A stretch of DNA of 20,000 nt from Catajapyx aquilonaris (taxonomy: Eukaryota). The position numbers and the translations under genes are program-made. Position 1 is the first letter of the stretch. Every line of letters begins with the position of its first letter. Shown piece after piece: positions 2,548-20,000 of this stretch. The stretch covers positions 61,634 to 81,633 of the forward strand of contig KZ538337.1 of the NCBI GenBank assembly GCA_000934665.2, written 5' to 3'. The notes under the pieces were generated by a model. It was given only the letters and a program-made list of their open reading frames with translations. It did no database searches and was not told the DNA's origin.

Positions 2548-3470
2548 TACATTGCGGCACTTTGAGAGGCTTTGCTAAATCGGGTTCTATATTCGAGGCT
2601 AGCAATAAGTGCAACGTTTGATCAGCTAGGGCGTGATAATTAGGGGCTGGTAACAGAGCCGATCCAATCAATAAAGTTCTATTAGACGAAGCCTGTGTAT
2701 AGGATCAAGTGGTGGAGCGTGCGGGCATCCTGATTATATAATTTTTCCCACCTTCATAAAAGCCGAGTTCCACTTGAAAAAGACCTTATCGAAAGTGATG
2801 AAAGCAAAAGGAAACCCCCCCCACCATAATTCCAGATAACGTCACGCAAGTTTCACTAAAATGAAGGATTTATTGATATTGAAGCAGAAGAAGTTTCCAA
2901 GCACTGATATGACATCTGCTTCATTATGATGACAAACTGCGCGGATGTAGGAACAAAGTACATTTCCGCTTTGCTTTATCTTATTAGAGATAATTCATCA
3001 CACCCGGGCACTAATGAAAGTGAAAACGACTGAAAGATGGGCCACCGATTGTATGGGCTCATCGCATCTATCTATATCGCTATAACCTTTTGATCCGCAT
3101 TGTGACCCGCACCATGACACGCCCTGTTCAATGCCCAATAGTAATAACCGAAACAGTGTCGGGAAAAAGTGATTTTTACACAATGAGGCTCATTCATCTG
3201 GACAGAAATGTGCTGTTATCGCCAGGAACAACCATATCAAGGGCTAAGCCGGACAATGTTCGGTATTGCACGGTCCAAAATCTATTACCAACGTTGCCAC
3301 ATGCCTGAAAAAATCAACATGTGACCCGCACCCTGACTAAAAAGCCAGTTTGTATTCATACCTTTGTAATATTATGATGTCACTCTGTTTAAAAATATTG
3401 AGTTGAAATAGCCAAAATAATTCGGTTGAAACAATCGAACACTTTTCAACCAAAATGGCTAGTCCTTTAA

Positions 3471-3884
3471 AGGGACACTCCACTCAAAAAACAAGTTTGG
3501 CTCTAAATATCGGGCAAAAAATCCTGAATCCGACGATGCAATTAGTTTTTCGCTACGCAGAATGGTAATCCCAGGGCGAGGTGTCAAAGTGTGTCGTCTG
3601 CTAATGAGTGGCTCCGCCACGCGGGGAACAGGGGAACTGGAGGGCTGCACCGCTCTGGGATGGGCCTAAGCGCGCGGGCAGGCGGGAGCAGCCCTCCAGT
3701 TCCCAAGGTCCCGAGGGCGTCGCTGGCGGACGGCCAGCTTCTAGCGCACTATTTGAATTTCCCCACTTTGACCCCTCGCCCTGGGATTACCGTTCCGCGT
3801 GGCGTAAAACGGATTGCACCTTCGGATTCAGGATTTTTTGCCCGATTTTTAGAGCCAAACTTGTTTTTTGAGTGGAGTGTCCCT
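3471..3884. mobile_element. Non-autonomous Kolobok-like DNA transposon (MITE), 414 bp
   Basis: About 121-bp terminal inverted repeats (3471-3591 / 3764-3884) starting AGGGACACTCCACTCAAAAAACAAG and ending CTTGTTTTTTGAGTGGAGTGTCCCT. TTAA sits on both sides (3467-3470, 3885-3888). A TTAA TSD with 5'-RR...YY-3' ends is the Kolobok signature (piggyBac would start CCY). No transposase ORF. Confidence 0.88.
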
Positions 3885-5584
3885 TTAAACGAAAGAATGG
3901 TTCAGCCCTCCTCCACCCGGCTCTTCCCTCCTATCACGTCCTCGAATCACTCCGATGCTCAGAAAACACGACTGCTGTGACGTCAATTAATTAGTTAATT
4001 AGAGGCTAATATCTTTCAGCCAGTTTCGGTTACCGGTACCTCAACCATTACTGTAAATTCGCAACTTTCATGACCGTGCAGTTCCAAAGTGTAACACTTT
4101 CTGCACACGGTCCTGTAAGGTGTCACTGGCCTGTTGATCGCAGTTTGGGTGCGAATCTAAACAGGTTTTCTTTTTGCAGGAGACGCCAAACATTTTCACC
4201 GGTCCATATAAGGTCCGTCCCAAGTCTGGTAGTTACCCACGCTTCAATTCCATTCGATACACCCTACATATCCACCCTGTTCCCATCTGGACTTACACTA
4301 CTTGGTAGATAAGAAGACACGAGTCCTGTAAAGTGACAACCACCGCCATTTTCCCCTATTCTCTATGCCAACTCGCATCCAGCTGTCCATAAACTAATTC
4401 TGGACATGTTCCCAACTGTATCCTCCCTTGTTGATGTCAGCGCTGGTTTTGCTGAATATTATTCATAACACCAAAGGCCACCACCAAATTTATGACACCC
4501 ATGTAAAGATTTACATACATAAAGGTGGCAGTGAGGGTATAGGAAGAGAGGGGGGGGGGCTAATTATGGGACTCAAAGTGGGTGGGCATAAGATTCGACC
4601 CCCCAAAAAGGTGTGGGTTTTTCCCGTGACGTAAAAGACTCACCGGAGGCAACATACGCGTTTCATCTCTACCGACTATTTGCATACCTTCATCACGACT
4701 GGACGTTGATGGAATTGCAACTGGGGTGCCTAGGCCCAGGGACTTTTGATTACCATGTCCTCACGTGTTCCCTCCGATTCTTATTACCGCATCTGATGAC
4801 CAGAGTTATGCGCTGCTAGAGTTTCCTAGCTGAATTTCTGGAGAGGTTGAATTTACCACGGAATTTTGCGGGTCCCCTATTTAGAGAAAGGTCGTAAACT
4901 ACAGCTCTATAAAGGTCGTACCATTTTCGGATGGAGCAGATTCCTGCGGGATGCAAAGCAAGTTTTTTACCGTATGCAAATAAACCTGATGATAGACTAT
5001 AAAGATATACTATCTAGATTATTCTTCATAACGGTCATGAAAGAATGTCATCTGACCACACCTTTCGGCGTTATGTACCCACCCAAAGGTGGCAAGTAAT
5101 TTTTTGAATATAAAAATAGTCGCAATCTGGATCTACATTGAGCGACATTGGGTTGAGATGGAATGAGAATGAGAGACAAGATGCCAACCCAATGTAGGCA
5201 AAGAGTGGCAGACCCCACAATTTACCATTGGCCACGGCTGGAACCTTCTCCTAATATTAAACCAGCTCAGTAACCACAAAAAAATCTAAAAATGTAGCAG
5301 TTGGGCCTGTACCTCTTCTGCCCAAAAACTAGAATGAAACACCAGGACCACCCAGGCAAGGTACTTGTCTTCATATAGGTTTCCTTCCATGGCCATCATG
5401 AAATACGCAATCCCCCGCTGAACTCCAGCCTCTAGATGAGGGCTCAAGGAATGAGGGAGGACCAAGGACCCCCAAACTCACAAAATCGGATTGTTTTTGC
5501 TGATGATATGATGCTGGTGGACTCCACAAACAAGTCTAGGGGTCTGAGTTTTGCTTTTATTTAGCTTTGGGATGCCTCTGAGTT

Positions 5585-5613: not shown

Positions 5614-6481
5614 AGAGAGAGAAAAGTCTTGGAATAGTAATAAAAAAGAATTTATGGCGGCTCGCCGCGGCGCTAAAGCCAAGATTGCTCAAAGCAGCGT
5701 CTTGAGTGATTTAGATTGTGGAGTAATAGATATCATCCTGATAAGTCCAGTAGCCAGCACATAAGAGAATCCTTGTTTGTGCTGAAGAAAAATCCAGTTG
5801 GCATATCAGTGAATGTGGTGTAGCCTATAAATTGGGCATAAGCCACGATAGTCGGGATTTGTGTATACACATTGTATCTCACGCTAACACTGACGTGATG
5901 TAAAATTGCATCGGGAGAACAATTTAAGTATAACGTCAAACATTACTACAGTGGAACTTTACCTAACGCCATTATTTCAGGGCAGCAAGTATTATACAGT
6001 CTAAACAGAGACGGGACAAAGTTTGTCAGTCACTTCAGCAATGTAAGTAGTTAGTGAAATGCTGCCGCATAATCTTCTAGTGTTCAGCATTTATTACTCT
6101 GTTGGACGAGATTTGTGGGGTCTAAAGGTTAAAAGTACTGCATTATGGCATTAAATCTTCAAAGTTTATTCTAGGACGCTGGGGGTGGTTGGATCTTGCG
6201 TCTCTTATTTTCCGGAAGGCTTACTCTGCACGACCGTAATCGCTAAGCGTAAAATGATTTTTAAATGACATGTATTTCACTGCGGTATGGATGTACTGTA
6301 CGCCTCAAATGTAAAACATTCTCAAATTTTTGGATATGACGAGACATTAAAGTTACGTTCAATGCGACATACACCTATGTACAATATGATTATAAACAAT
6401 ACTTTATAACTTAGGCATGTCCAAAATATTGCAACGATATGGCTTCAAAAGAGCATTTCTTTTGTACCGCACTGTACCCGC

Positions 6482-7872: not shown

Positions 7873-8012
<140 letters not shown>

Positions 8013-10729: not shown

Positions 10730-10959
10730 TTTATAATTGATATTAATGAGGTTGGCCCAGCATTGCCTTTCAACCTCCAAGGATAGGGAAGGAAGGAAGC
10801 GGCTGTGGCCTATTATACGGAAGCGACCCCGGAATTATCCTAGAAAGAGCGTGGAAAACCACAGAAAACCACGGTCAGGGTTGCCGGCCCCGGGATTCGA
10901 ACCCAGGACCTCCCGATTAGCAGTCGGACGCCCTATCCACTATGCCAACCTGCTTCGGT
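10730..10959 (-). mobile_element. tRNA-derived SINE
   Basis: On the minus strand: Pol III A-box TGGCATAGTGG (10937-10947) and B-box GGTTCGAATCC (10893-10903), anticodon-like arm TCCGA-CTGCTAA-TCGGG and T-arm CTGGG-TTCGAAT-CCCGG. These are followed by a ~150-bp tRNA-unrelated body, a 3' stem-loop (10748-10777) and an AT-rich end. TCGGTACC occurs at both ends (10722-10729, 10955-10962), a possible TSD. Confidence 0.85.
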
Positions 10960-10965
10960 ACCGTA

Positions 10966-11285
10966 TCTATATTATTAATACCCGACTGTCATGGAAACTC
11001 TTCCAGCACCGTACGGCATACAGCATTGGGAGGTGTTTCAAAATTTTGCTCGCGTTTTCTATATTTGCAAACCACTTTTTTAAAATAGTGCCCTTGGAAT
11101 TTATAAAACGCAAAAAAAACGCGACGTCGCCAGTTCCACGGAATTCCCATTTCCGCCGTGCAGGGCGCTACCTGTTTGGTCACGACTCTCTTCTGCACGT
11201 GAGACGTTACCGTCGGATGTCGCTTCGATGCTGCTGCCTTTACCACACTAACCACTTTTGCCAAATGTTGGCAACCGGTGACTAG
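10966..11285 (+). mobile_element. Non-autonomous Helitron, copy 1 (320 bp)
   Basis: A|TCTATATTATTAA 5' end and CTAG|T 3' end (11282-11286). Hairpin TTGCCAA-ATG-TTGGCAA (11258-11274) lies 7 nt before CTAG. No TSD or TIR. Collinear similarity to 12476-12870. Confidence 0.82.
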
Positions 11286-12408
11286 TTAACTATAATGACA
11301 GATTATCACATAAGTTCAGTAAAAATATTCAAAAATTGATGGGAAAATATGAAACTGAGACATAATAAAAGGAATCAATTTTGGTTGAAATACGTATAAC
11401 AACCGTAATTTTTTTGGAAGTTACCATCTTCAATATGTCCCATTAGGAAGTTTTGAACAACGTCATTGCATAAACTTTGCACCAAAATGATTATCCTGCA
11501 CTTCAGGCGCTGTATAAATGTTAGCCTATCAAGGACAGTCGGCAAGTTTGAACTGGTCGGCAGCTGATGGATCATTCACGCCAGACCAGGTGGAAAGGAA
11601 GGATAAAGCGCATCCCCTTATCTAAGTAACGTGAATAATCAATCTGCTTGATCCACGCGCCTATTCAAAACATCTATTTACACTAACTGTATGGACTTTT
11701 TCATCCAACTTCAACAGTCAAGCCAAATACTTTGAATGTGTCAACTTGATGGGATGAAAGGTAGTTTGTAACATTACAGGGTGGTACGCTACCCAAAATG
11801 TCAAATTTTCAAGGAAAAAAATTATGAACAGTTCATCCTGGCATGTGACTGTGTCTCTGATTGTTGCTTCTAACATTAAACTGGTTGCTGGAATGAACAA
11901 GCTAGGGAATTGGGCCATACATCATTACATGCAGAATTCAAGTGAGGAGCGACAGACCACTTTGATCATGGCAGCCAATGACAACATTGAGTTCCGGGCA
12001 TGCATTCCTAAACAGGATTATATCCCATCATGATGCTAATGGCTACTAGAGCCATCTGCACCTTTTGACCGGCTTTCGTGCCAGCCTGGTGCCTAACTTG
12101 GGGAATTATGATCTCCCCAAACTCTGGGCTACAAGGCTCTCATACTCTATTTGCAGTTATACAGCACCTAGTGAGGTGAGCCTGAATTATTCATCATTTT
12201 GGCATGGAAAAATGGCAGGCACTGCATCAGGGTGAGTTAAAAAGTGCTATAGCTGACCGTTATTATTTAACAGGTCGGTTATAAATATAAAATGGAGATA
12301 ATAGCTCTTGAAACACGTTAGTCTACAGTGCACTCTCATCGTAATGCAGTTTAATGAACACTCACTTGTAATCAGGTTGAGCATCCCTCCCCCCAGGCAC
12401 ATGTTGAA

Positions 12409-12467
<59 letters not shown>

Positions 12468-12477
12468 CATCATCATC
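12409..12477. repeat. Compound microsatellite (ATT)19(ATC)4
   Basis: Direct reading; the last ATC overlaps the A|TC start of Helitron copy 2. Confidence 0.97.
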
Positions 12478-12870
12478 TGCATTATTAAAAGCTGACTGTT
12501 CCCACCACTCCTCCCGCGCCGCACAGCCTACAGCTTTGGGAGTTGTGTCAAAATTTTGCCTGTGTTTTCTACATGTGAAATAAACTTTTGTTTTTTTGAA
12601 AAAAGTGCCCAGGGACTTTGTACAAGTAAATCTCAAAAAGCTTTAAAAACTCAAACAAGCCGACCGCGGCCTTTCCACGGAATTCCCATTTCCGCCGTTC
12701 CGGGCGCGGGGCGCCACCTCCTGGGTGGCGACTCGCCTACTTCTGCACTTCACCATCTTACTTCGGCACTTCACCGTCGGATGTCGCTGCCTGGTCCGCG
12801 TCTCTCTCTCTCTCTCCACTTTCGCAATTTTGCCAAATTTTGTGCCAAATTTTGGCAAGTTGGTGACTAG
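12476..12870 (+). mobile_element. Non-autonomous Helitron, copy 2 (395 bp)
   Basis: A|TCTGCATTATTAAAA 5' end and CTAG|T 3' end (12867-12871). Palindrome TGCCAAATTTTGGCA at 12843-12857. Shares identical 26-bp (12673-12698 = 11134-11159) and 16-bp (12773-12788 = 11209-11224) blocks with copy 1. Confidence 0.82.
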
Positions 12871-14008
12871 TAATGTTATTATGTTGGGTACATTTTAATT
12901 AAGGGTAGCCTATAAAGGCAGTAACTGCAAATATCAGCACAATGCTCCCAAAAAGTGGCATGAGTGCGAGGGTCGTTTTTATTATTTTTTTATCAAGGCG
13001 CACTTACATCCGATTCGGCAGTTAGGCCCGGGAAAGGATCGGCTTTTCCAGACGATTCGTGCCAAGCATGCTAGATGACCTAGTCCAAGTAGCCAAACAT
13101 GTGGTGGAGGGAGACGAAAGCGGACCAACCGGTGTCCTACGTGACCATGGATAAGTATGTTCTCTTTTTTTAATACATATACCCCCCCCCCCCCCCTTCT
13201 CCTTCACAGTTACCAGACTGAGAATTGAAGAAGTGGATAACGCAACTTGCTTACAATAGAAATTGTGTCATCTATACATTTTCTCATAAGCTCGTTTTTA
13301 AGGAGTTAGGCTGAATATTATTTTTTTGGTGCTCAAAATTTAACCTGGAAGTCAGTGCCCATCTTTTCCATGTACAGTCGAATCTATCGACACTTAACTC
13401 CACCAAAAGTCGAATCAGTCACAATGAAAATAATTCCGCCCTGCCACATCTACAGCCATTATTGAAGGGCTTGAGTAGTGAATGATGCCAGCTGCCTCTA
13501 CTACAGGAGTTGCTCTCCAGCTCTGAATAGCTCTAAATGGAATCTCCAGTTGAGAAATATCCTACTTGAAAACTCATCGGTCTCCAGCCTTTTATCGACA
13601 GCACTTTCCCAATACGTTCCTTCCCCCCCCCCATGCCCTACCCCCTCCAAATCTCACAATCCCCCACGTTCTATACATAAATCGTTCTGATTCGAACTGA
13701 AATTGTCGAATTTAATCACAAAGTATACGTATATGCCCCCACCCAGTGCAGATGGAAATGTTCGATTGTCATAATTGCACCGGCGGCATTGTTATCGGAT
13801 TGAACGTGTACAGCTTCAGATTGGGCAGAGGTACCCAATATTTGCACAGTTTTTTTTAAAATAGGCTGGTGTTGATGAGCTTTGCCATACGCAAAGGCCA
13901 CTGGTGCAATTTTATATTCCACCTAGACTAGAGGCTTGTGATACTCAAAATTTTACGTCCAGAATTGACGTGGTACAGATATTTTCGATATATCCAAATT
14001 GTGCATTA

Positions 14009-14272
14009 CAGGGTGTCAATCCTAAGCGTGTCACCAGAAAAGTTGGTGGGAGAGGGCGCAGGTGTGGGCATTTTTGCATAAGGAACTAGGGGTCGGAAAC
14101 GCACCCTCACCGAGTCACTCCGCCGCGTGTCGCACGCCTCTTGCATACTGCCTGCCGCAAACTTGAAAGGGGCGTAACTCGGTGAGGGTGCGTTTCCGAC
14201 CCCTAGTTCCTTATGCAAAAATGCTCACACCTGCGCCCTCTACCGCACCATCTTTTCTGGTGACACGCCCTG
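14009..14272. mobile_element. Tc1/mariner-type palindromic MITE, 264 bp
   Basis: TA|CAGGG...CCCTG|TA ends (TA at 14007-14008 and 14273-14274). Near-perfect ~90-bp inverted arms (about 14026-14115 vs 14177-14268), e.g. GCATTTTTGCATAAGGAACTAGGGGTCGGAAACGCACCCTCACCGAGT and its reverse complement. Confidence 0.88.
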
Positions 14273-14599: not shown

Positions 14600-14758
14600 N
14601 NNNNNNNNNNNNNNNNNNNNNNNNNNNNNNNNNNNNNNNNNNNNNNNNNNNNNNNNNNNNNNNNNNNNNNNNNNNNNNNNNNNNNNNNNNNNNNNNNNNN
14701 NNNNNNNNNNNNNNNNNNNNNNNNNNNNNNNNNNNNNNNNNNNNNNNNNNNNNNNNNN
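14600..14758. other. Assembly gap (159 N) flanked by poly-C on both sides
   Basis: Run of N between C homopolymers. A smaller gap at 19412-19415 also lies within poly-C, and there is a single N at 19785. Confidence 0.99.
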
Positions 14759-15930
14759 CCCCCCCCCCCCCCCTCTCCCCTCTCCCCACCCTTTTTTTTT
14801 CCTCCTTCCCCCAGAGACCCTTCCTGTGCCTTATCTCACCTGTTCAGGGCAAGAATGCTTTCCACTGGCATTTCAAATGAACCTAGCCTTTTTTTTTACC
14901 TCCTTTCAGATTCCCAACCTTCCTTCGGTACAAAACATCTAGTCGAGGACGTCAACTGGCTAAAGGAAAAAAAAAAAAAAAAATAGTGGGCTTGAGAATG
15001 ATGATGACTTGAGAAGGCCCATTTGCCCCACAGATGTGGTGCCGGGGACTATAGTTTGTGATGCTGTAGGGGGATGGAGGCGATGACACATTAGGACGAC
15101 GTCGTTCGTATTTCCACTTACATTAGGCAGGAATGGATGGTGAGAAATTTTTTTTTCAACTTCTACCAGGCTATAGTTGCAGTCGTGTTAATCAGTGAGG
15201 GAATTCTTGGTCTGACATGTTTGAACTCCGATAACATTTATGTTCAGGTTATGTTTAAATACTAATTTGGACCATAAAGCAAAATTCTTTGTAATCCTGA
15301 TTCTGAGTGCAAATGCATGGAGTAATCCTCTTACATTCGTGGAATGAGCCATCCCATCAAATTTATTCAAGCATAATATCCTTAAAGACTGCTATGTCAC
15401 ATTGCAGCGAATTGGTAAATTCAGGTGTGGCACCGGGTATTATGAAACGTTATGTAACATCCCTTTTGTGAGTTCATCTCTCTTGTTCAATATTGCAGAT
15501 TCCATCTAGGGCAGTCTAATCCTAGTGTTTGAACTGTCCGACTCCATTCATCGAGGATACCGATGGTGTAACTAACCATCGAAAATAACTCTTACATCAC
15601 TTGTTCGCCAATATTTTTTTTCACCACCGTCTGTACACACCCATCCTACCTTTTTTATCTTCCGGGTCACTCTAGCTTCATTCTAACCCGGAATGACAGC
15701 TCTTTTTACACCGGTGGTCAGGTGACCGGAACATTCCAGACGGTGATGTCAGGCCTATTGTCTTGTCCACCTCTCAATTATTGGGGCGTCCATAGCTTTT
15801 TTTTTGTGTACCAATCAGGATTTGAATTCGGACAGTACCGTACCTCTTGATGAGGTCAGACTCACAAAATAAATGTGACTCAAAATGTTCGCATCCACTA
15901 AGGATCAAAAAAAGAACGAATCAATCGATC

Positions 15931-16005
15931 ACTCACGCATCGTTGATTTGCTGAACAGAAGTCAGGAGCTACTTACCTGAAACAAAACCAAAAACACGCA
16001 ATTAG
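15931..16005 (-). other. Candidate recursive splice site (ratchet point) with 40-nt cryptic RS-exon
   Basis: Minus strand reads CTAAT (branch, 16005-16001), TGCGTGTTTTTGGTTTTGTTT, CAG|GTAAGT (junction between 15977 and 15976), then a second donor GC|GTGAGT at 15936-15931. Confidence 0.65.
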
Positions 16006-16064
16006 TTGAGGGTCAGCGACGACATTCTTTTAAAACCAATACAATTATGCCTGGTCCTTTCCTA

Positions 16065-16251
16065 CACTCTTAACCATTTACCTTCTCTAGAGAGGGTAAG
16101 AAAGTGGCCATTTTTTTACCTTACATTGTAGGGTAAATATTCTTGGGTAAATTGATTCTAAGGTAAATTTTGCATGTATTACCTTAGAAAATAGAGGGTA
16201 AAAAATGGCCTCTTTCTTACCCTCTTTACAGAAGGTAAATGGTTAAGAGTG
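16065..16251. mobile_element. CACTA/EnSpm-like MITE, 187 bp
   Basis: About 56-bp TIRs (first 22 bp perfect: CACTCTTAACCATTTACCTTCT). TA flanks at 16063-16064 and 16252-16253. About 10 copies of a TTACC/GGTAA motif in both orientations, resembling CACTA subterminal repeats. The superfamily call is inferred from the CACT terminus and 2-bp TSD. Confidence 0.82.
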
Positions 16252-17126
16252 TAGGTTGGAAATTCGGGGAAATTCCAAATGTCGGATTTAGTTAAATCTG
16301 GACCATTGCTTCTATATAAGTTCCTCATGATTATTTTACCATTTATAGCGTCCGGTATAGTTCAGTCAGGGTGAATAGGATGGAGAATTATGTTCTCTAG
16401 AGAGATGGGATTCGACCATGGATAGAAGCAGCTGCCGGTACAGGTATGTTTGTTTCTGTTCGATAGACATGCTTGGTTCCAGGGCTCAAAATGAGGTTTT
16501 AAAATAGGCAAATGAGGGCTTTATTCAGCGCAAATTCCCTGTTCCCTTAGGCCTAATAAATATTAGGCTTCGAGTCAAAATGGACTCATCATTATATCGA
16601 CTGGCATTTAAATTCAGTTTTCAGAAGGATTGGTTCACAATGTTGTGGTAGAATGGCTGGGTTTTGTGATAACCGAACTGTCAGTCATTATATAAATAAT
16701 ATTATTGGTACATTATTTTCAGGCGTGTTTGCACAAGGTGTTTCATAATGATTTAGACAAATTTATAGAGTGAATTGCTGGAAACTATAGAGTTGTCATT
16801 TATTGCGGCCTATACTACAAATAATGGGTATGAAATACAATGGCTGTGCTGCCTTTTAATTTTAATACAAGTGTTACTTAAAGTTAAATTGCAATCTCAT
16901 TCAAGTGTATAGCCAGGAGTCTACGAGGCAATGGAACTCTCTCATAGGTCTCATATCTCATAGGTTAACGTTAGTTTATTCGCCTCACAGGAAATGCACT
17001 CTTTGAGTCGTGCTAATTACTTGAGTAATGAGCATGCGGAGAACATATGACCCCCAGGTGCCCAAAATTTCACTCTACAGGTTCGTCTGAATCATTATGA
17101 AAATCCCTGCATTTATTTGGTTGTTA

Positions 17127-17343: not shown

Positions 17344-18898
17344 TAACGTTCATATTGATATATTTTAAATGCAAAGCCTGCAGACTCATTGTGATAAATG
17401 TTATAATCATATGATTATGGCAGGTTTTGTACACACATTTGCTTGGAGAGCAAACTTATGCAAAATGTTTACCTCGAAAATGACAGCTTTTAAAACAGTC
17501 TACAATAAGCACAACACATGCCACCACATTTGCGTAGTAATATTCATTTGATATGTTACCAACTGAAAGGTGCAGCAACAATTGTCACCATCGCAGTCAG
17601 CACCACTATTACATCTGTGACATCATTAACCAACTGCTGCTCTTTGGACGATCCAAACCATTATGAATAGTCTATCAGTATACAAATGGTAATCTACTGA
17701 CTTCCCACCCACACTGCAGATCAATATCATTCCTCATTCATTCATTCATTCATGACTGCTCCTGAAAGATAATCGCAAGCATATGCTCGATAATACTCGA
17801 ACTTTGACCCACATTGCGCAGGCGTCGGGGTCAGAATTTTCATTCCGGTTGATTAGACGGGGGCGCATAGCCCTGCAAAAATAGGGCCAGTGCCTTTTGC
17901 GAAACGCACGGTAGCGCAAAAATTAAGTGCAGCTGTTCAGCCTTCTTTTTTTAAAAGCAAGATGCGGCCTCAGACGCTCAAAGTAGGCTAAAGGCGCCTC
18001 CACGTAATATGCATTCAAGAGCCCTTCTCAAGAAGGAAAAAAAAAGTCCCTCCCAAAAAAAAGGAAGGTGAGTTATGCCCAGATGCTTAAGACGTGCAAG
18101 TGAAGTAGCAGAATGGCACCGACTCTTGGGATTTAATTTGAAGCTAGCTCGGTATTTAGCAAGCAAACACATTCAGACCTTCTCCTTAGTTGAATTCATT
18201 TCGCGAACCCCCTATATTCATTGGCAGAGTTGGCTGGGACACGCCCCATAATTTCCTTCCCATATAGGGACCTCGTGCTGGTGACCCTTAGACAGAAACT
18301 AACTCGGATTATTACCTTTGTGGATCCCCTGGCGTCTCTTTCCTATGATTTCCCAGTGTGAAAGCAGAGGATTTTGGGTTTCTCACAGTGGAGGAAAATC
18401 AATCCCTAGAGACAAGGGGGGGGGGGGGGGTTCATAATTTGAAGGTGTGGAAAATCCACCTCAACCATGGCAGACTTGTTTTTCCTCTGGGGACATCCAG
18501 GTCGTTTTGTTACTGCAATTCCACTGCTTAGCGACAATGCTCATTTGCTTGGGGGTCATTATGTAACGTTTGGCGTCCTCAAGAAGCACGTTCAACCACC
18601 CCCTTTGACCTTTTTTTTTGCTGCTCGAATTTGTACTTTTGGACCTACATAAGGCGCAAAAGAACTTTGCGAAATGATCGCCAACAACCAATAGGAATCA
18701 CTGGTCCTGATTTGACCTACCATACCTCCAATATCCTTCACTCACATTCATAGCTCAAGTTCTGAGTTTGATTCCTGAGTCAGGTTCTCATATAAAAAAT
18801 AAAGCTATTAAAATTTTACTGTATATACGTAAAGTACAAAGTTTGTACTGTATATGTTTGTCCCACCAGCCTAACCCACTTTCACACTACTTAGAGTA

Positions 18899-19184: not shown

Positions 19185-20000
19185 TACCGGTACCGGTACT
19201 GAACCTTGGCTTACACGCTGATTCGGGGAAAAGTCCGAAATCCAAACTTTTTAAAGCCTAACTACCCAAAATTAGGAATTTTTCAGCTATATTAATAATT
19301 CGCTAATGAACAAATCCTGAAATTATATAAATTCTCCTATAAAGAGGTTATTGACCTATCGCAAATTATCCTACAGTTTCGCATCACCGCAGCTTCGTAT
19401 TAACCCCCCCCNNNNCCCCCCCCCCCCCCCAAATCAAATTATCCTCAACTTTTTGTTCCCAGATTGACCGCACAACACTGACTGTTCGCAACACAGCCCG
19501 CAAACTTCCAGCAATTTGATCAAGTTAGTATCATATACCGTACGCCAACTGCCGCCCACACCCTGAAACCAAACTACCAAACAGTTTGACAATACGTTGA
19601 CATTTTCCTAGCCCGAAATCCTAGATCCGAAATGTCGGCTGACTTGAAGAGATCCCAAGAGCATCACAACACTTGGTCTGGACTGGGATAAGCAACAAAA
19701 GGGGGTAGAAACTACACACGTGTCCGAGACTAAAAAGGCGCTCTTGTTATCAAAGTTTAGGGGCAGAGGGGGTTCTGTGTCCCCNCTCTATCCCAACCCT
19801 CGACCCAAAACCATCACAAAAATGAATCCTCTAGGACCTTATCAAGTTGTAAAGCACGGCAGCGGTGTGCTTCCCCCATCTTTTTTGGGCAGGCCCTCCA
19901 CCAAAATGAACAATGCGACACAGGATCTCACTCCCCTTTATCACTATTATCAGGCAACAATCCCAAAAAAGGGGGTACTTCCCTGCCCTAGAGGGATGCG

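What the first reader, a model, noticed from the sequence alone, without database searches (positions are those of the whole stretch)
15931..16005. Complete recursive-splicing signature on the minus strand: branch point, pyrimidine tract, CAG|GTAAGT and a 40-nt poison RS-exon
Seen: the minus strand reads ...CAACTAATTGCGTGTTTTTGGTTTTGTTTCAG|GTAAGTAGCTCCTGACTTCTGTTCAGCAAATCAACGATGC|GTGAGT. A strong acceptor abuts a consensus donor, a second consensus donor lies 40 nt downstream, and the 40-nt segment has stops in all three frames within 15 nt (TAA, TAG, TGA). Established: recursive splice sites in very long Drosophila and vertebrate introns have this AG|GT form, are defined by a short cryptic exon with a downstream donor, and such exons often carry premature stops. 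Inference: the window lies inside a very long intron of a minus-strand gene that is removed stepwise. This would be notable if the organism is a non-model invertebrate.
Basis: partly seen in the sequence, partly recalled or inferred. Interest (0 to 1): 0.75.

Follow-up and report, generated by a model that had tools for sequence, protein, structure and literature searches.

The report
Unverified candidate recursive splice site
A textbook-looking "ratchet point" splice signal sits on the minus strand of a gene-poor stretch of a eukaryote genome, but without RNA data, annotation or a related genome it stays a plausible, unproven example of a known mechanism.

Summary
The sequence is exactly as described. 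On the minus strand there is CTAAT (A at -26), a G/T-only tract with TT at -5/-6, then CAG|GTAAGT (junction 15977|15976). A second GTGAGT lies 40 nt downstream and a third at +111.

The 9-mer core alone is not beyond chance: 79 of 200 shuffles hold one. The full composite is rare: 0 of 200 shuffles, and about 0.005 per Mb per strand in 1.2e9 simulated bases, or about 2e-4 per window.

It meets every sequence-level hallmark published for Drosophila ratchet points. It lies outside the neighbouring MITE-like inverted repeat and has no second copy in the window.

The decisive tests could not be run. No genome or annotation is held, no RNA run is listed, no reads were laid, and no related DNA was found.

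Two of the three "poison" stops follow from the donor consensus itself.

My estimate: about 0.4 a real recursive site, about 0.4 an unused chance site, the rest an expressed short exon or repeat-borne motif. If real, it is a new member of a known kind.

The parts
16002..16006 (-). Branch-point-like motif CTAAT; the candidate branch A is at 16002, which is -26 from the acceptor G
   Evidence: Read. Fly ratchet-point branch points map to -36..-21 with a peak at -30. Its use as a branch point is inferred, not shown.
15979..16001 (-). Pyrimidine tract TTGCGTGTTTTTGGTTTTGTTTC: 17 of 23 pyrimidines, no A and so no AG, TT at -5/-6
   Evidence: 14 of 20 Y in -22..-3. TT at -5/-6 is found in 196 of 197 fly ratchet points against 43.76% of all introns.
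15977..15978 (-). Acceptor AG of the candidate ratchet point
15971..15976 (-). Ratchet-point donor GTAAGT; with the preceding CAG it is a full 9/9 consensus CAG|GTAAGT
15937..15976 (-). 40-nt candidate cryptic RS-exon. It shifts the frame and has stops in all three frames within 15 nt
   Evidence: read directly; exon length 40. Fly cryptic RS-exons are about 50 nt and generally out of frame.
15931..15936 (-). Downstream donor TGC|GTGAGT. It would define the cryptic exon and is weaker than the ratchet donor because its exonic -3..-1 is off consensus
15860..15865 (-). Third GTGAGT, 111 nt downstream of the junction; a possible alternative cryptic-exon donor
16061..16255 (.). Neighbouring MITE-like inverted repeat. 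It is not part of the splice signal; it ends 55 nt upstream (minus sense) of the branch motif
   Evidence: arms of 61 nt, 92% complementary; identical 22-nt termini; folds as a long hairpin

Best explanation
This is a candidate intronic ratchet point (recursive splice site) of a minus-strand transcript.

Proposed mechanism, all inferred from published fly and vertebrate work and none shown here:
1. The acceptor at 15977 and the downstream donor at 15936 (or 15865) are first recognised together as a short cryptic exon.
2. The upstream exon is spliced to 15976. This removes the first part of a long intron and rebuilds a strong donor, (exon end)|GTAAGT.
3. That donor outcompetes the weaker GTGAGT, so the 40 nt and the rest of the intron are removed in the next step. 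No trace is left in the mRNA.
4. If the ratchet donor failed, inclusion of the 40 nt would shift the frame and bring a stop codon.

Shown here: the motif, its improbability by chance, and its match to published hallmarks. Not shown: transcription, intron context, use of the site, conservation.
For: (1) Every sequence hallmark is present.
- It fits the (Y)nNCAG|GTAAGT consensus as quoted.
- TT at -5/-6: 196 of 197 fly ratchet points have it, against 189 of 885 (21%) of simulated chance sites.
- Branch-like CTAAT has its A at -26, inside the -36..-21 range, and there is no AG between it and the acceptor.
- A downstream donor lies 40 nt on. Cryptic RS-exons are about 50 nt, and most Duff sites have a further 5'ss less than 100 nt downstream. 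Among simulated chance sites, 5 of 189 (2.6%) have one.
- The ratchet donor is stronger than the exon donor, and the exon is out of frame.

(2) The composite is rare by chance: 0 of 200 shuffles; about 2e-4 per window, and <1.3e-4 with the branch motif.

(3) Published base rates (Shepard 2009, Table 2). RP-motifs are 4- to more than 20-fold enriched on the sense strand of introns over 50 kb in 5 of 5 invertebrates: sea urchin 0.540 against 0.066 per 100 kb, fly 2.196/0.101, mosquito 1.029/0, bee 0.484/0.122, beetle 0.807/0.101. The control-strand rate of about 0.1 per 100 kb equals my simulated chance rate of 0.92 per Mb. In flies, 91 of 160 motif-plus-conservation predictions were later verified.

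(4) CpG o/e of 0.74 is unlike a vertebrate (the comparison value is recalled). Vertebrates are the group where such motifs show no enrichment.

(5) There is no Pfam-matching ORF in the 20 kb (0 of 128). The segment has no second copy in the window and lies outside the neighbouring inverted repeat.

(6) Inference: if a genome has 80-500 real sites per 250-1000 Mb, a random 20-kb window holds a real site with this full signature roughly as often as, or several times more often than, a chance one.
Against: - There is no evidence that the minus strand is transcribed, that the window lies in an intron, or that the site is used or conserved.
- The organism is unknown. If it is a plant, a protist or an animal without ratchet-point enrichment, the prior collapses.
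- The core 9-mer alone is expected by chance (79 of 200 shuffles).
- Two of the three stops follow automatically from GTAAGTAG.
I allow a 3-5-fold higher chance rate.
- A good acceptor plus GTAAGT pair also occurs on the + strand (5980/6043). So splice-like pairs do arise here, or a + strand gene runs through the window, which would make the minus-strand site antisense.
- Strand skews are uninformative: minus-strand G>C by 0.05 and T about equal to A.
Confidence: 0.42

Rival explanations
1. Chance pseudo-site. A good acceptor happens to abut a consensus donor in intergenic DNA, in an untranscribed region, or antisense to a gene, and the spliceosome never uses it.
For: - The core motif is expected 0.48 times per window, and 79 of 200 shuffles have one.
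- Motifs at ratchet-point strength occur about 0.1 per 100 kb on control strands of every genome studied, and 0.92 per Mb in my simulation. That means hundreds per genome.
- The finding was picked out of a very large scan because of the motif.
- No transcript, annotation or conservation evidence exists.
- Another splice-like pair is on the + strand.
- The organism is unknown.
Against: - The full composite is about 2e-4 per window or less and occurred in 0 of 200 shuffles.
- TT at -5/-6, the downstream donor and the AG-free branch motif each add likelihood for a real site (against 21% and 2.6% by chance).
- In the 5 of 5 invertebrates studied, most sense-strand motifs in long introns are in excess of chance.
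Confidence: 0.38
2. An expressed short exon. The 40-nt (or 111-nt) segment is a real 5'-UTR, non-coding, poison-cassette or decoy exon that merely begins with GTAAGT. It would be an 'expressed RS-exon' like Ubx mI/mII or annotated vertebrate RS-exons, included in some transcripts. The ATG at its 3' end (…CAACGATGC|GT) could even be a start codon.
For: - Acceptor and donors lie at exon-like spacing.
- Expressed RS-exons are known: fewer than 50 in flies, and potentially more than 6,400 in mammals.
- Annotated RS-exons are common in deuterostomes, including sea urchin.
- The Bx RS-exon lies in a 5' UTR.
Against: - Stops in all frames and a length of 40 nt exclude an internal coding exon.
- With a 9/9 ratchet donor against TGC|GTGAGT, donor competition predicts skipping.
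- No RNA holder was listed, so there is no positive evidence of inclusion.
Confidence: 0.12
3. Repeat-borne motif. The segment belongs to a dispersed element, for example the antisense of an A-rich tail supplying the T-tract, so the signature is copied many times and says nothing about this locus.
For: - The window is repeat-rich: three long inverted repeats, a two-copy 320-nt element, a tRNA-like sequence and microsatellites.
- A MITE-like element ends only 55 nt from the branch motif.
- On the + strand the tract reads as an A/C-rich run.
Against: - The motif lies outside the inverted-repeat arms.
- Self-BLAST of 15400-16060 against the rest of the window gives only hits of 19 nt or less with E>1.
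- A 24-mer across the junction has 0 matches in metagenome contigs, though that collection seems to hold no DNA of this organism.
- There is no polyadenylation-signal-like AATAAA just upstream on the + strand (read).
- Genome-wide copy number could not be tested.
Confidence: 0.08

Closest known systems
Drosophila intronic ratchet points with cryptic RS-exons (Ubx, kuz, Bx; Burnette 2005, Duff 2015, Joseph 2018/2021, Pai 2018)
   Same: - Juxtaposed (Y)nNCAG|GTAAGT.
- TT at -5/-6.
- Branch-like A at -26.
- A short out-of-frame cryptic exon (40 nt against about 50 nt) closed by a weaker donor.
   Different: No intron context, junction, lariat or saw-tooth evidence, and no conservation are known here. 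The organism is unknown, and CpG o/e of 0.74 does not look dipteran (comparison recalled). Burnette 2005 and Joseph 2018 were not seen; they are cited through.
Vertebrate recursive splice sites defined by RS-exons (Sibley 2015; Blazquez 2018)
   Same: Same two-step logic: exon definition by a downstream 5'ss, a reconstituted RS-5'ss that outcompetes it, and a cryptic exon that would be harmful if included.
   Different: Only about 9-10 fully suppressed sites are established in mammals, and RP-motifs are not enriched in vertebrate long introns (ratio 0.9-1.5 in 8 of 8 species). This window is not vertebrate-like in CpG content. Sibley 2015 is not held.
Computationally inferred RP-site enrichment in non-drosophilid invertebrates (Shepard et al. 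2009) and the predicted RS site in locust NPF1
   Same: This is a motif-only prediction of the same kind. Sea urchin, mosquito, bee and beetle show 4- to more than 10-fold sense-strand excess. The locust site was predicted from the Burnette matrix and supported by U2AF65 RIP.
   Different: Those predictions were made inside annotated long introns on the sense strand. Here the strand and the intron context are unknown.
Poison or decoy cassette exons
   Same: A short non-coding segment with functional-looking splice sites and premature stops.
   Different: Poison exons are included in a regulated fraction of transcripts and need no donor at their 5' end. Here the 5'-terminal consensus donor predicts removal.

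Membership tests
Intronic ratchet point / recursive splice site | [quoted passage not shown] | tested here: met
   CAG|GTAAGT at 15979..15971 (-), with 14 of 20 pyrimidines in -22..-3. Consensus as quoted.
Intronic ratchet point / recursive splice site | TT dinucleotide at -5/-6 (196 of 197 fly sites) | tested here: met
   T at -4, -5 and -6. Published frequency. By chance, 189 of 885 simulated sites have it.
Intronic ratchet point / recursive splice site | Branch point about -36..-21 upstream, usually A | tested here: inconclusive
   CTAAT has its A at -26 and no AG follows it, within the published range. This is a motif only; use as a branch point needs lariat reads.
Intronic ratchet point / recursive splice site | Short cryptic RS-exon closed by a downstream 5'ss (<100 nt) that is weaker than the ratchet donor | tested here: met
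   GTGAGT at +40 and +111. TGC|GTGAGT against CAG|GTAAGT, judged by match to consensus. No NNSPLICE or MaxEnt score was computed. Criteria.
Intronic ratchet point / recursive splice site | Cryptic exon out of frame or carrying premature stops | tested here: met
   40 nt; TAA, TAG and TGA within 15 nt. Two of these stops are built into GTAAGTAG.
Intronic ratchet point / recursive splice site | Lies on the sense strand of a long intron (fly: 11.3-132.7 kb; segments 2.6-63.6 kb) | not testable with these tools
   No genome or annotation is held. The only indirect fact is that 0 of 128 ORFs of 55 aa or more match Pfam, which fits an intron or intergenic DNA.
Intronic ratchet point / recursive splice site | Junction reads from the upstream exon to the site, saw-tooth read density, lariats from the ratchet donor | not testable with these tools
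   No RNA holder is listed and nothing was laid.
Intronic ratchet point / recursive splice site | Strong conservation confined to the SA|SD core | not testable with these tools
   No look-alike in earlier scan windows. 0 matches to a 24-mer across the junction in metagenome contigs.
Dispersed repeat / MITE-borne motif | The motif lies within the element, and other copies carry it | tested here: not met
   It lies outside the arms 16061-16121/16195-16255, and there is no second copy in the window. Genome-wide copy number was not testable.
U1 snRNA gene (the + strand reads ACTTACCTG) | Match to the Rfam U1 model | tested here: not met
   The Rfam gathering scan of the window found only a tRNA-like hit at 10882-10953.

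The most novel reading that the evidence does not exclude
The site is a constitutively used zero-length-exon ratchet point in an animal that is neither a drosophilid nor a vertebrate. Stepwise intron removal with a suppressed cryptic exon would then be documented at RNA level in a further lineage, supporting an old, pan-bilaterian origin for the fly-type (cryptic-exon) mode.

In the listings of my three searches, I saw RNA-level validation only for Drosophila and vertebrates. For other invertebrates I saw motif enrichment and one predicted locust site with RIP support. I read only listings and the passages cited, not every paper.
Probability: 0.3. Interest if true: 0.4.

Novelty: new member of a known kind. 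Interest (0 to 1): 0.25.

Why it matters
If the site is used, it marks a long intron of a probably developmental or neural gene. In flies, 63% of host genes peak in nervous tissue. It would also add an RNA-testable ratchet point outside the two well-studied groups.

The mechanism, the motif and its enrichment in several invertebrates are already published, so a single unverified instance adds little. The practical value is a precise, cheap test: one RT-PCR, or a look at stranded total RNA-seq at 15976.

Tried and rejected
- Whole genome or annotation: none held.
- Earlier scan notes by place, words and sequence: nothing relevant.
- Sequencing runs: four DNA runs of one sample and study, and one run of unknown kind with next to none of the words. 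No RNA holder is listed.
So there is no read-level evidence on expression, junctions, polymorphism or copy number.
- Metagenome scan with a 24-mer across the junction: 0 matches.
- Second metagenome scan with the 22-nt terminus of the neighbouring inverted repeat: 1 match (L001). On reading, it is a GC-rich, ORF-dense, bacterial-looking contig that shares only the 22-mer. This is a chance hit, so no DNA of this organism or its relatives was available.
- Pfam on 128 stop-to-stop ORFs of 55 aa or more with fewer than 5 X: 0 hits.
- Rfam: only a tRNA-like hit.
- Clade hint from the 182-aa ORF over the tRNA-like/repeat region: 40 candidates, none at E<=0.001.
- Strand skews and the GTRAGT count asymmetry (11 on minus against 4 on plus): considered as hints of minus-strand transcription and dropped. 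Published sense and antisense donor densities are about equal (Table 3).
- U1 gene on the + strand: rejected.
- Papers not held: Burnette 2005 and Sibley 2015. Joseph 2018 was not looked up by id. Supplements were not opened. Shepard's Supplementary Figures S1-S3 and Pai's S1 Table could refine the base rates.

Full report
**Observation**

- a branch-like CTAAT whose A is 26 nt upstream of the acceptor G;
- a 23-nt tract of T, G and C with no A (17 of 23 pyrimidines), with T at -4, -5 and -6;
- CAG|GTAAGT, with the junction between 15977 and 15976;
- a 40-nt segment (15976..15937);
- a second donor, TGC|GTGAGT (15936..15931).

A third GTGAGT lies 111 nt downstream of the junction. The three stops (TAA nt 2-4, TAG nt 6-8, TGA nt 13-15) are there. 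TAA is part of GTAAGT and TAG of GTAAGTAG, so only TGA and the length of 40 nt (not a multiple of three) are independent of the donor consensus.

**Is it more than chance?**

The 9-mer YAG|GTRAGT alone is not. It is expected 0.48 times per window, and 79 of 200 dinucleotide shuffles hold at least one. It is the only such site in the window; the other AGGTRAGT, on the + strand at 18067, has no pyrimidine tract.

The composite is rare.
- TTTCAG|GTRAGT followed 19-49 nt later by GTRAGT occurred in 0 of 200 shuffles.
- In 1.2e9 bases of order-3 Markov sequence trained on the window (about 0.96e9 scanned), the counts were: 11152 YAG|GTRAGT; 885 with at least 14/20 pyrimidines; 189 also with TT at -5/-6; 5 also with a second GTRAGT at +25..+120; 0 also with an AG-free CTRAY branch motif.
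- That is about 0.92, 0.20, 0.005 and <0.003 per Mb per strand, or about 2e-4 per 20-kb window for the fourth level.
- Two shorter simulations agree.
- The window's own marginals agree as well: 14 acceptor-like sites and 15 GTRAGT per 40 kb of strand, which multiply to about 0.13 and 0.005 per Mb (my arithmetic).
- The simulated rate at the 'strong motif' level equals the control-strand rate that Shepard et al. measured in real genomes, 0.07-0.12 per 100 kb.

**Surroundings**

The window is non-coding at the level I could test.
- 0 of 128 stop-to-stop ORFs of 55 aa or more (those with fewer than 5 X) match Pfam.
- Rfam and ARAGORN find only a tRNA-like sequence at 10882-10953.
- The window is repeat-rich.
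- A MITE-like inverted repeat (16061-16255; arms of 61 nt, 92% complementary; identical 22-nt termini) ends 55 nt upstream, in minus sense, of the branch motif. It would fold as a long hairpin in a transcript. The splice signature lies outside it.
- A sensitive self-BLAST of 15400-16060 against the rest of the window finds nothing better than 19 nt at E>1.
- CpG o/e is 0.74. From recalled values, this is unlike vertebrates and unlike Diptera, and fits many other invertebrates or plants. The organism remains unknown.

**What could not be tested**
- No whole genome is held.
- Only DNA runs of one sample and one run of unknown kind were listed.
- No reads were laid.
- No look-alike exists in earlier scan windows.
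- A 24-mer across the junction has no match in metagenome contigs.
- A second scan with the inverted-repeat terminus gave one chance hit in a bacterial-looking contig.
- A protein search with the longest repeat-borne ORF gave nothing.

Intron context, strand of transcription, junction, lariat and saw-tooth evidence, conservation and genome-wide copy number all remain open.

**Comparison with what is known**

*Duff et al. preprint (whole text read).*
- 197 fly ratchet points in introns of 11.3-132.7 kb.
- A more prominent pyrimidine tract than ordinary introns.
- TT at -5/-6 in 196 of 197, against 43.76% of all introns.
- Branch points at -36..-21.
- Strong local conservation.
- 91 of 160 earlier motif-plus-conservation predictions verified.

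*Joseph et al. 2021 (Introduction and passages).*
- Ratchet points come with a cryptic RS-exon of about 50 nt, closed by a downstream donor that is generally weaker than the ratchet donor.
- There are more than 500 sites in flies and nine fully suppressed ones in mammals.

*Blazquez et al. 2018 (passages).* Most Duff sites have a further 5'ss less than 100 nt downstream.

*Shepard et al. 2009 (section 6 and passages).* RP-motifs are enriched on the sense strand of introns over 50 kb in 5 of 5 invertebrates: sea urchin 8.2x, fly 21.7x, mosquito far above 10x, bee 4.0x, beetle 8.0x. In 8 of 8 vertebrates the ratio is 0.9-1.5.

*Locust NPF1 paper (passages).* It predicts a site from the Burnette matrix and supports it by U2AF65 RIP.

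*Pai et al. 2018 (passages).* Recursive sites have about twice the conservation of control AGGT motifs.

The present site meets every sequence-level criterion. The defining functional criteria are untested.

**How likely is it real?** (inference)

Likelihood ratios against chance:
- TT at -5/-6: about 0.995/0.21.
- Downstream strong donor: above 0.5 (by a looser definition) or about 0.25 (my guess for exact GTRAGT), against 0.026.

If a genome holds 80-500 real sites in 250-1000 Mb, a random 20-kb window holds a real site with about 0.002-0.04 probability, and perhaps a quarter of these show the full signature. The chance rate is 2e-4, or up to about 1e-3 if I allow for looser definitions and real-genome clustering.

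I put about 0.5 on the organism being an animal with fly-, urchin- or bee-like enrichment. The posterior then ranges from about 0.25 to about 0.75. I commit to about 0.42 for a ratchet point with a suppressed cryptic exon, 0.38 for an unused chance site, 0.12 for an expressed short exon that begins with GTAAGT, and 0.08 for a repeat-borne motif.

**Mechanism proposed** (inferred)
1. Exon definition across 15977..15936.
2. Splicing of the upstream exon to 15976.
3. Use of the rebuilt strong donor in preference to GTGAGT.
4. Removal of the 40 nt with the downstream intron.

**Verdict**

If true, it is a new member of a well-described kind, and interest is low to moderate.

Noticed in passing
window 16061-16255: MITE-like element. 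It has inverted arms of 61 nt (92% complementary) separated by 73 nt, with identical 22-nt termini CCTACACTCTTAACCATTTACC. The region 15900-16270 folds at -138 kcal/mol, z = -11.5. I recognised no clear target-site duplication by eye.
   Followed up: partly
window 3463-3591 / 3764-3892 and 14048-14121 / 14171-14244: Two further long inverted repeats: arms of 129 nt at 91% and 74 nt at 95%. The first lies in the most GC-rich part of the window, GC 0.48-0.50. They are probably other foldback or MITE-type elements.
   Followed up: no
window 10882-10953 (-) and about 10975-11290 / 12490-12880: A tRNA-like sequence (Rfam 38.4 bits; ARAGORN 'Ser GCT', but 72 nt without a long extra arm) lies next to one of two copies of a roughly 320-nt repeat. 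Two ungapped segments of the repeat are 78% and 82% identical. The second copy abuts an (ATT)n run, which reads as an (AAT)n tail on the minus strand and is SINE-like. The 182-aa ORF across it has no protein relatives.
   Followed up: partly
window 5957-6049 (+): A plus-strand splice-like pair...CCATTATTTCAG| then 62 nt then |GTAAGTAG, with two of three frames open. It is either a chance pseudo-exon or an exon of a + strand gene. The latter would make the minus-strand site antisense.
   Followed up: no
whole window: GTRAGT occurs 11 times on the minus strand and 4 times on the plus strand. Three of the minus-strand copies lie within 112 nt at the finding. On the minus strand G exceeds C by about 5%, and T is about equal to A.
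   Followed up: partly
window 7873-8012 and 12409-12485: Compound microsatellites, (ATG)n running into (ATT)n, and (ATT)n.
   Followed up: no
window 14600-14758, 19412-19415, 19785: Runs of N, which are assembly gaps. The first is flanked by G/C homopolymer-like sequence.
   Followed up: no
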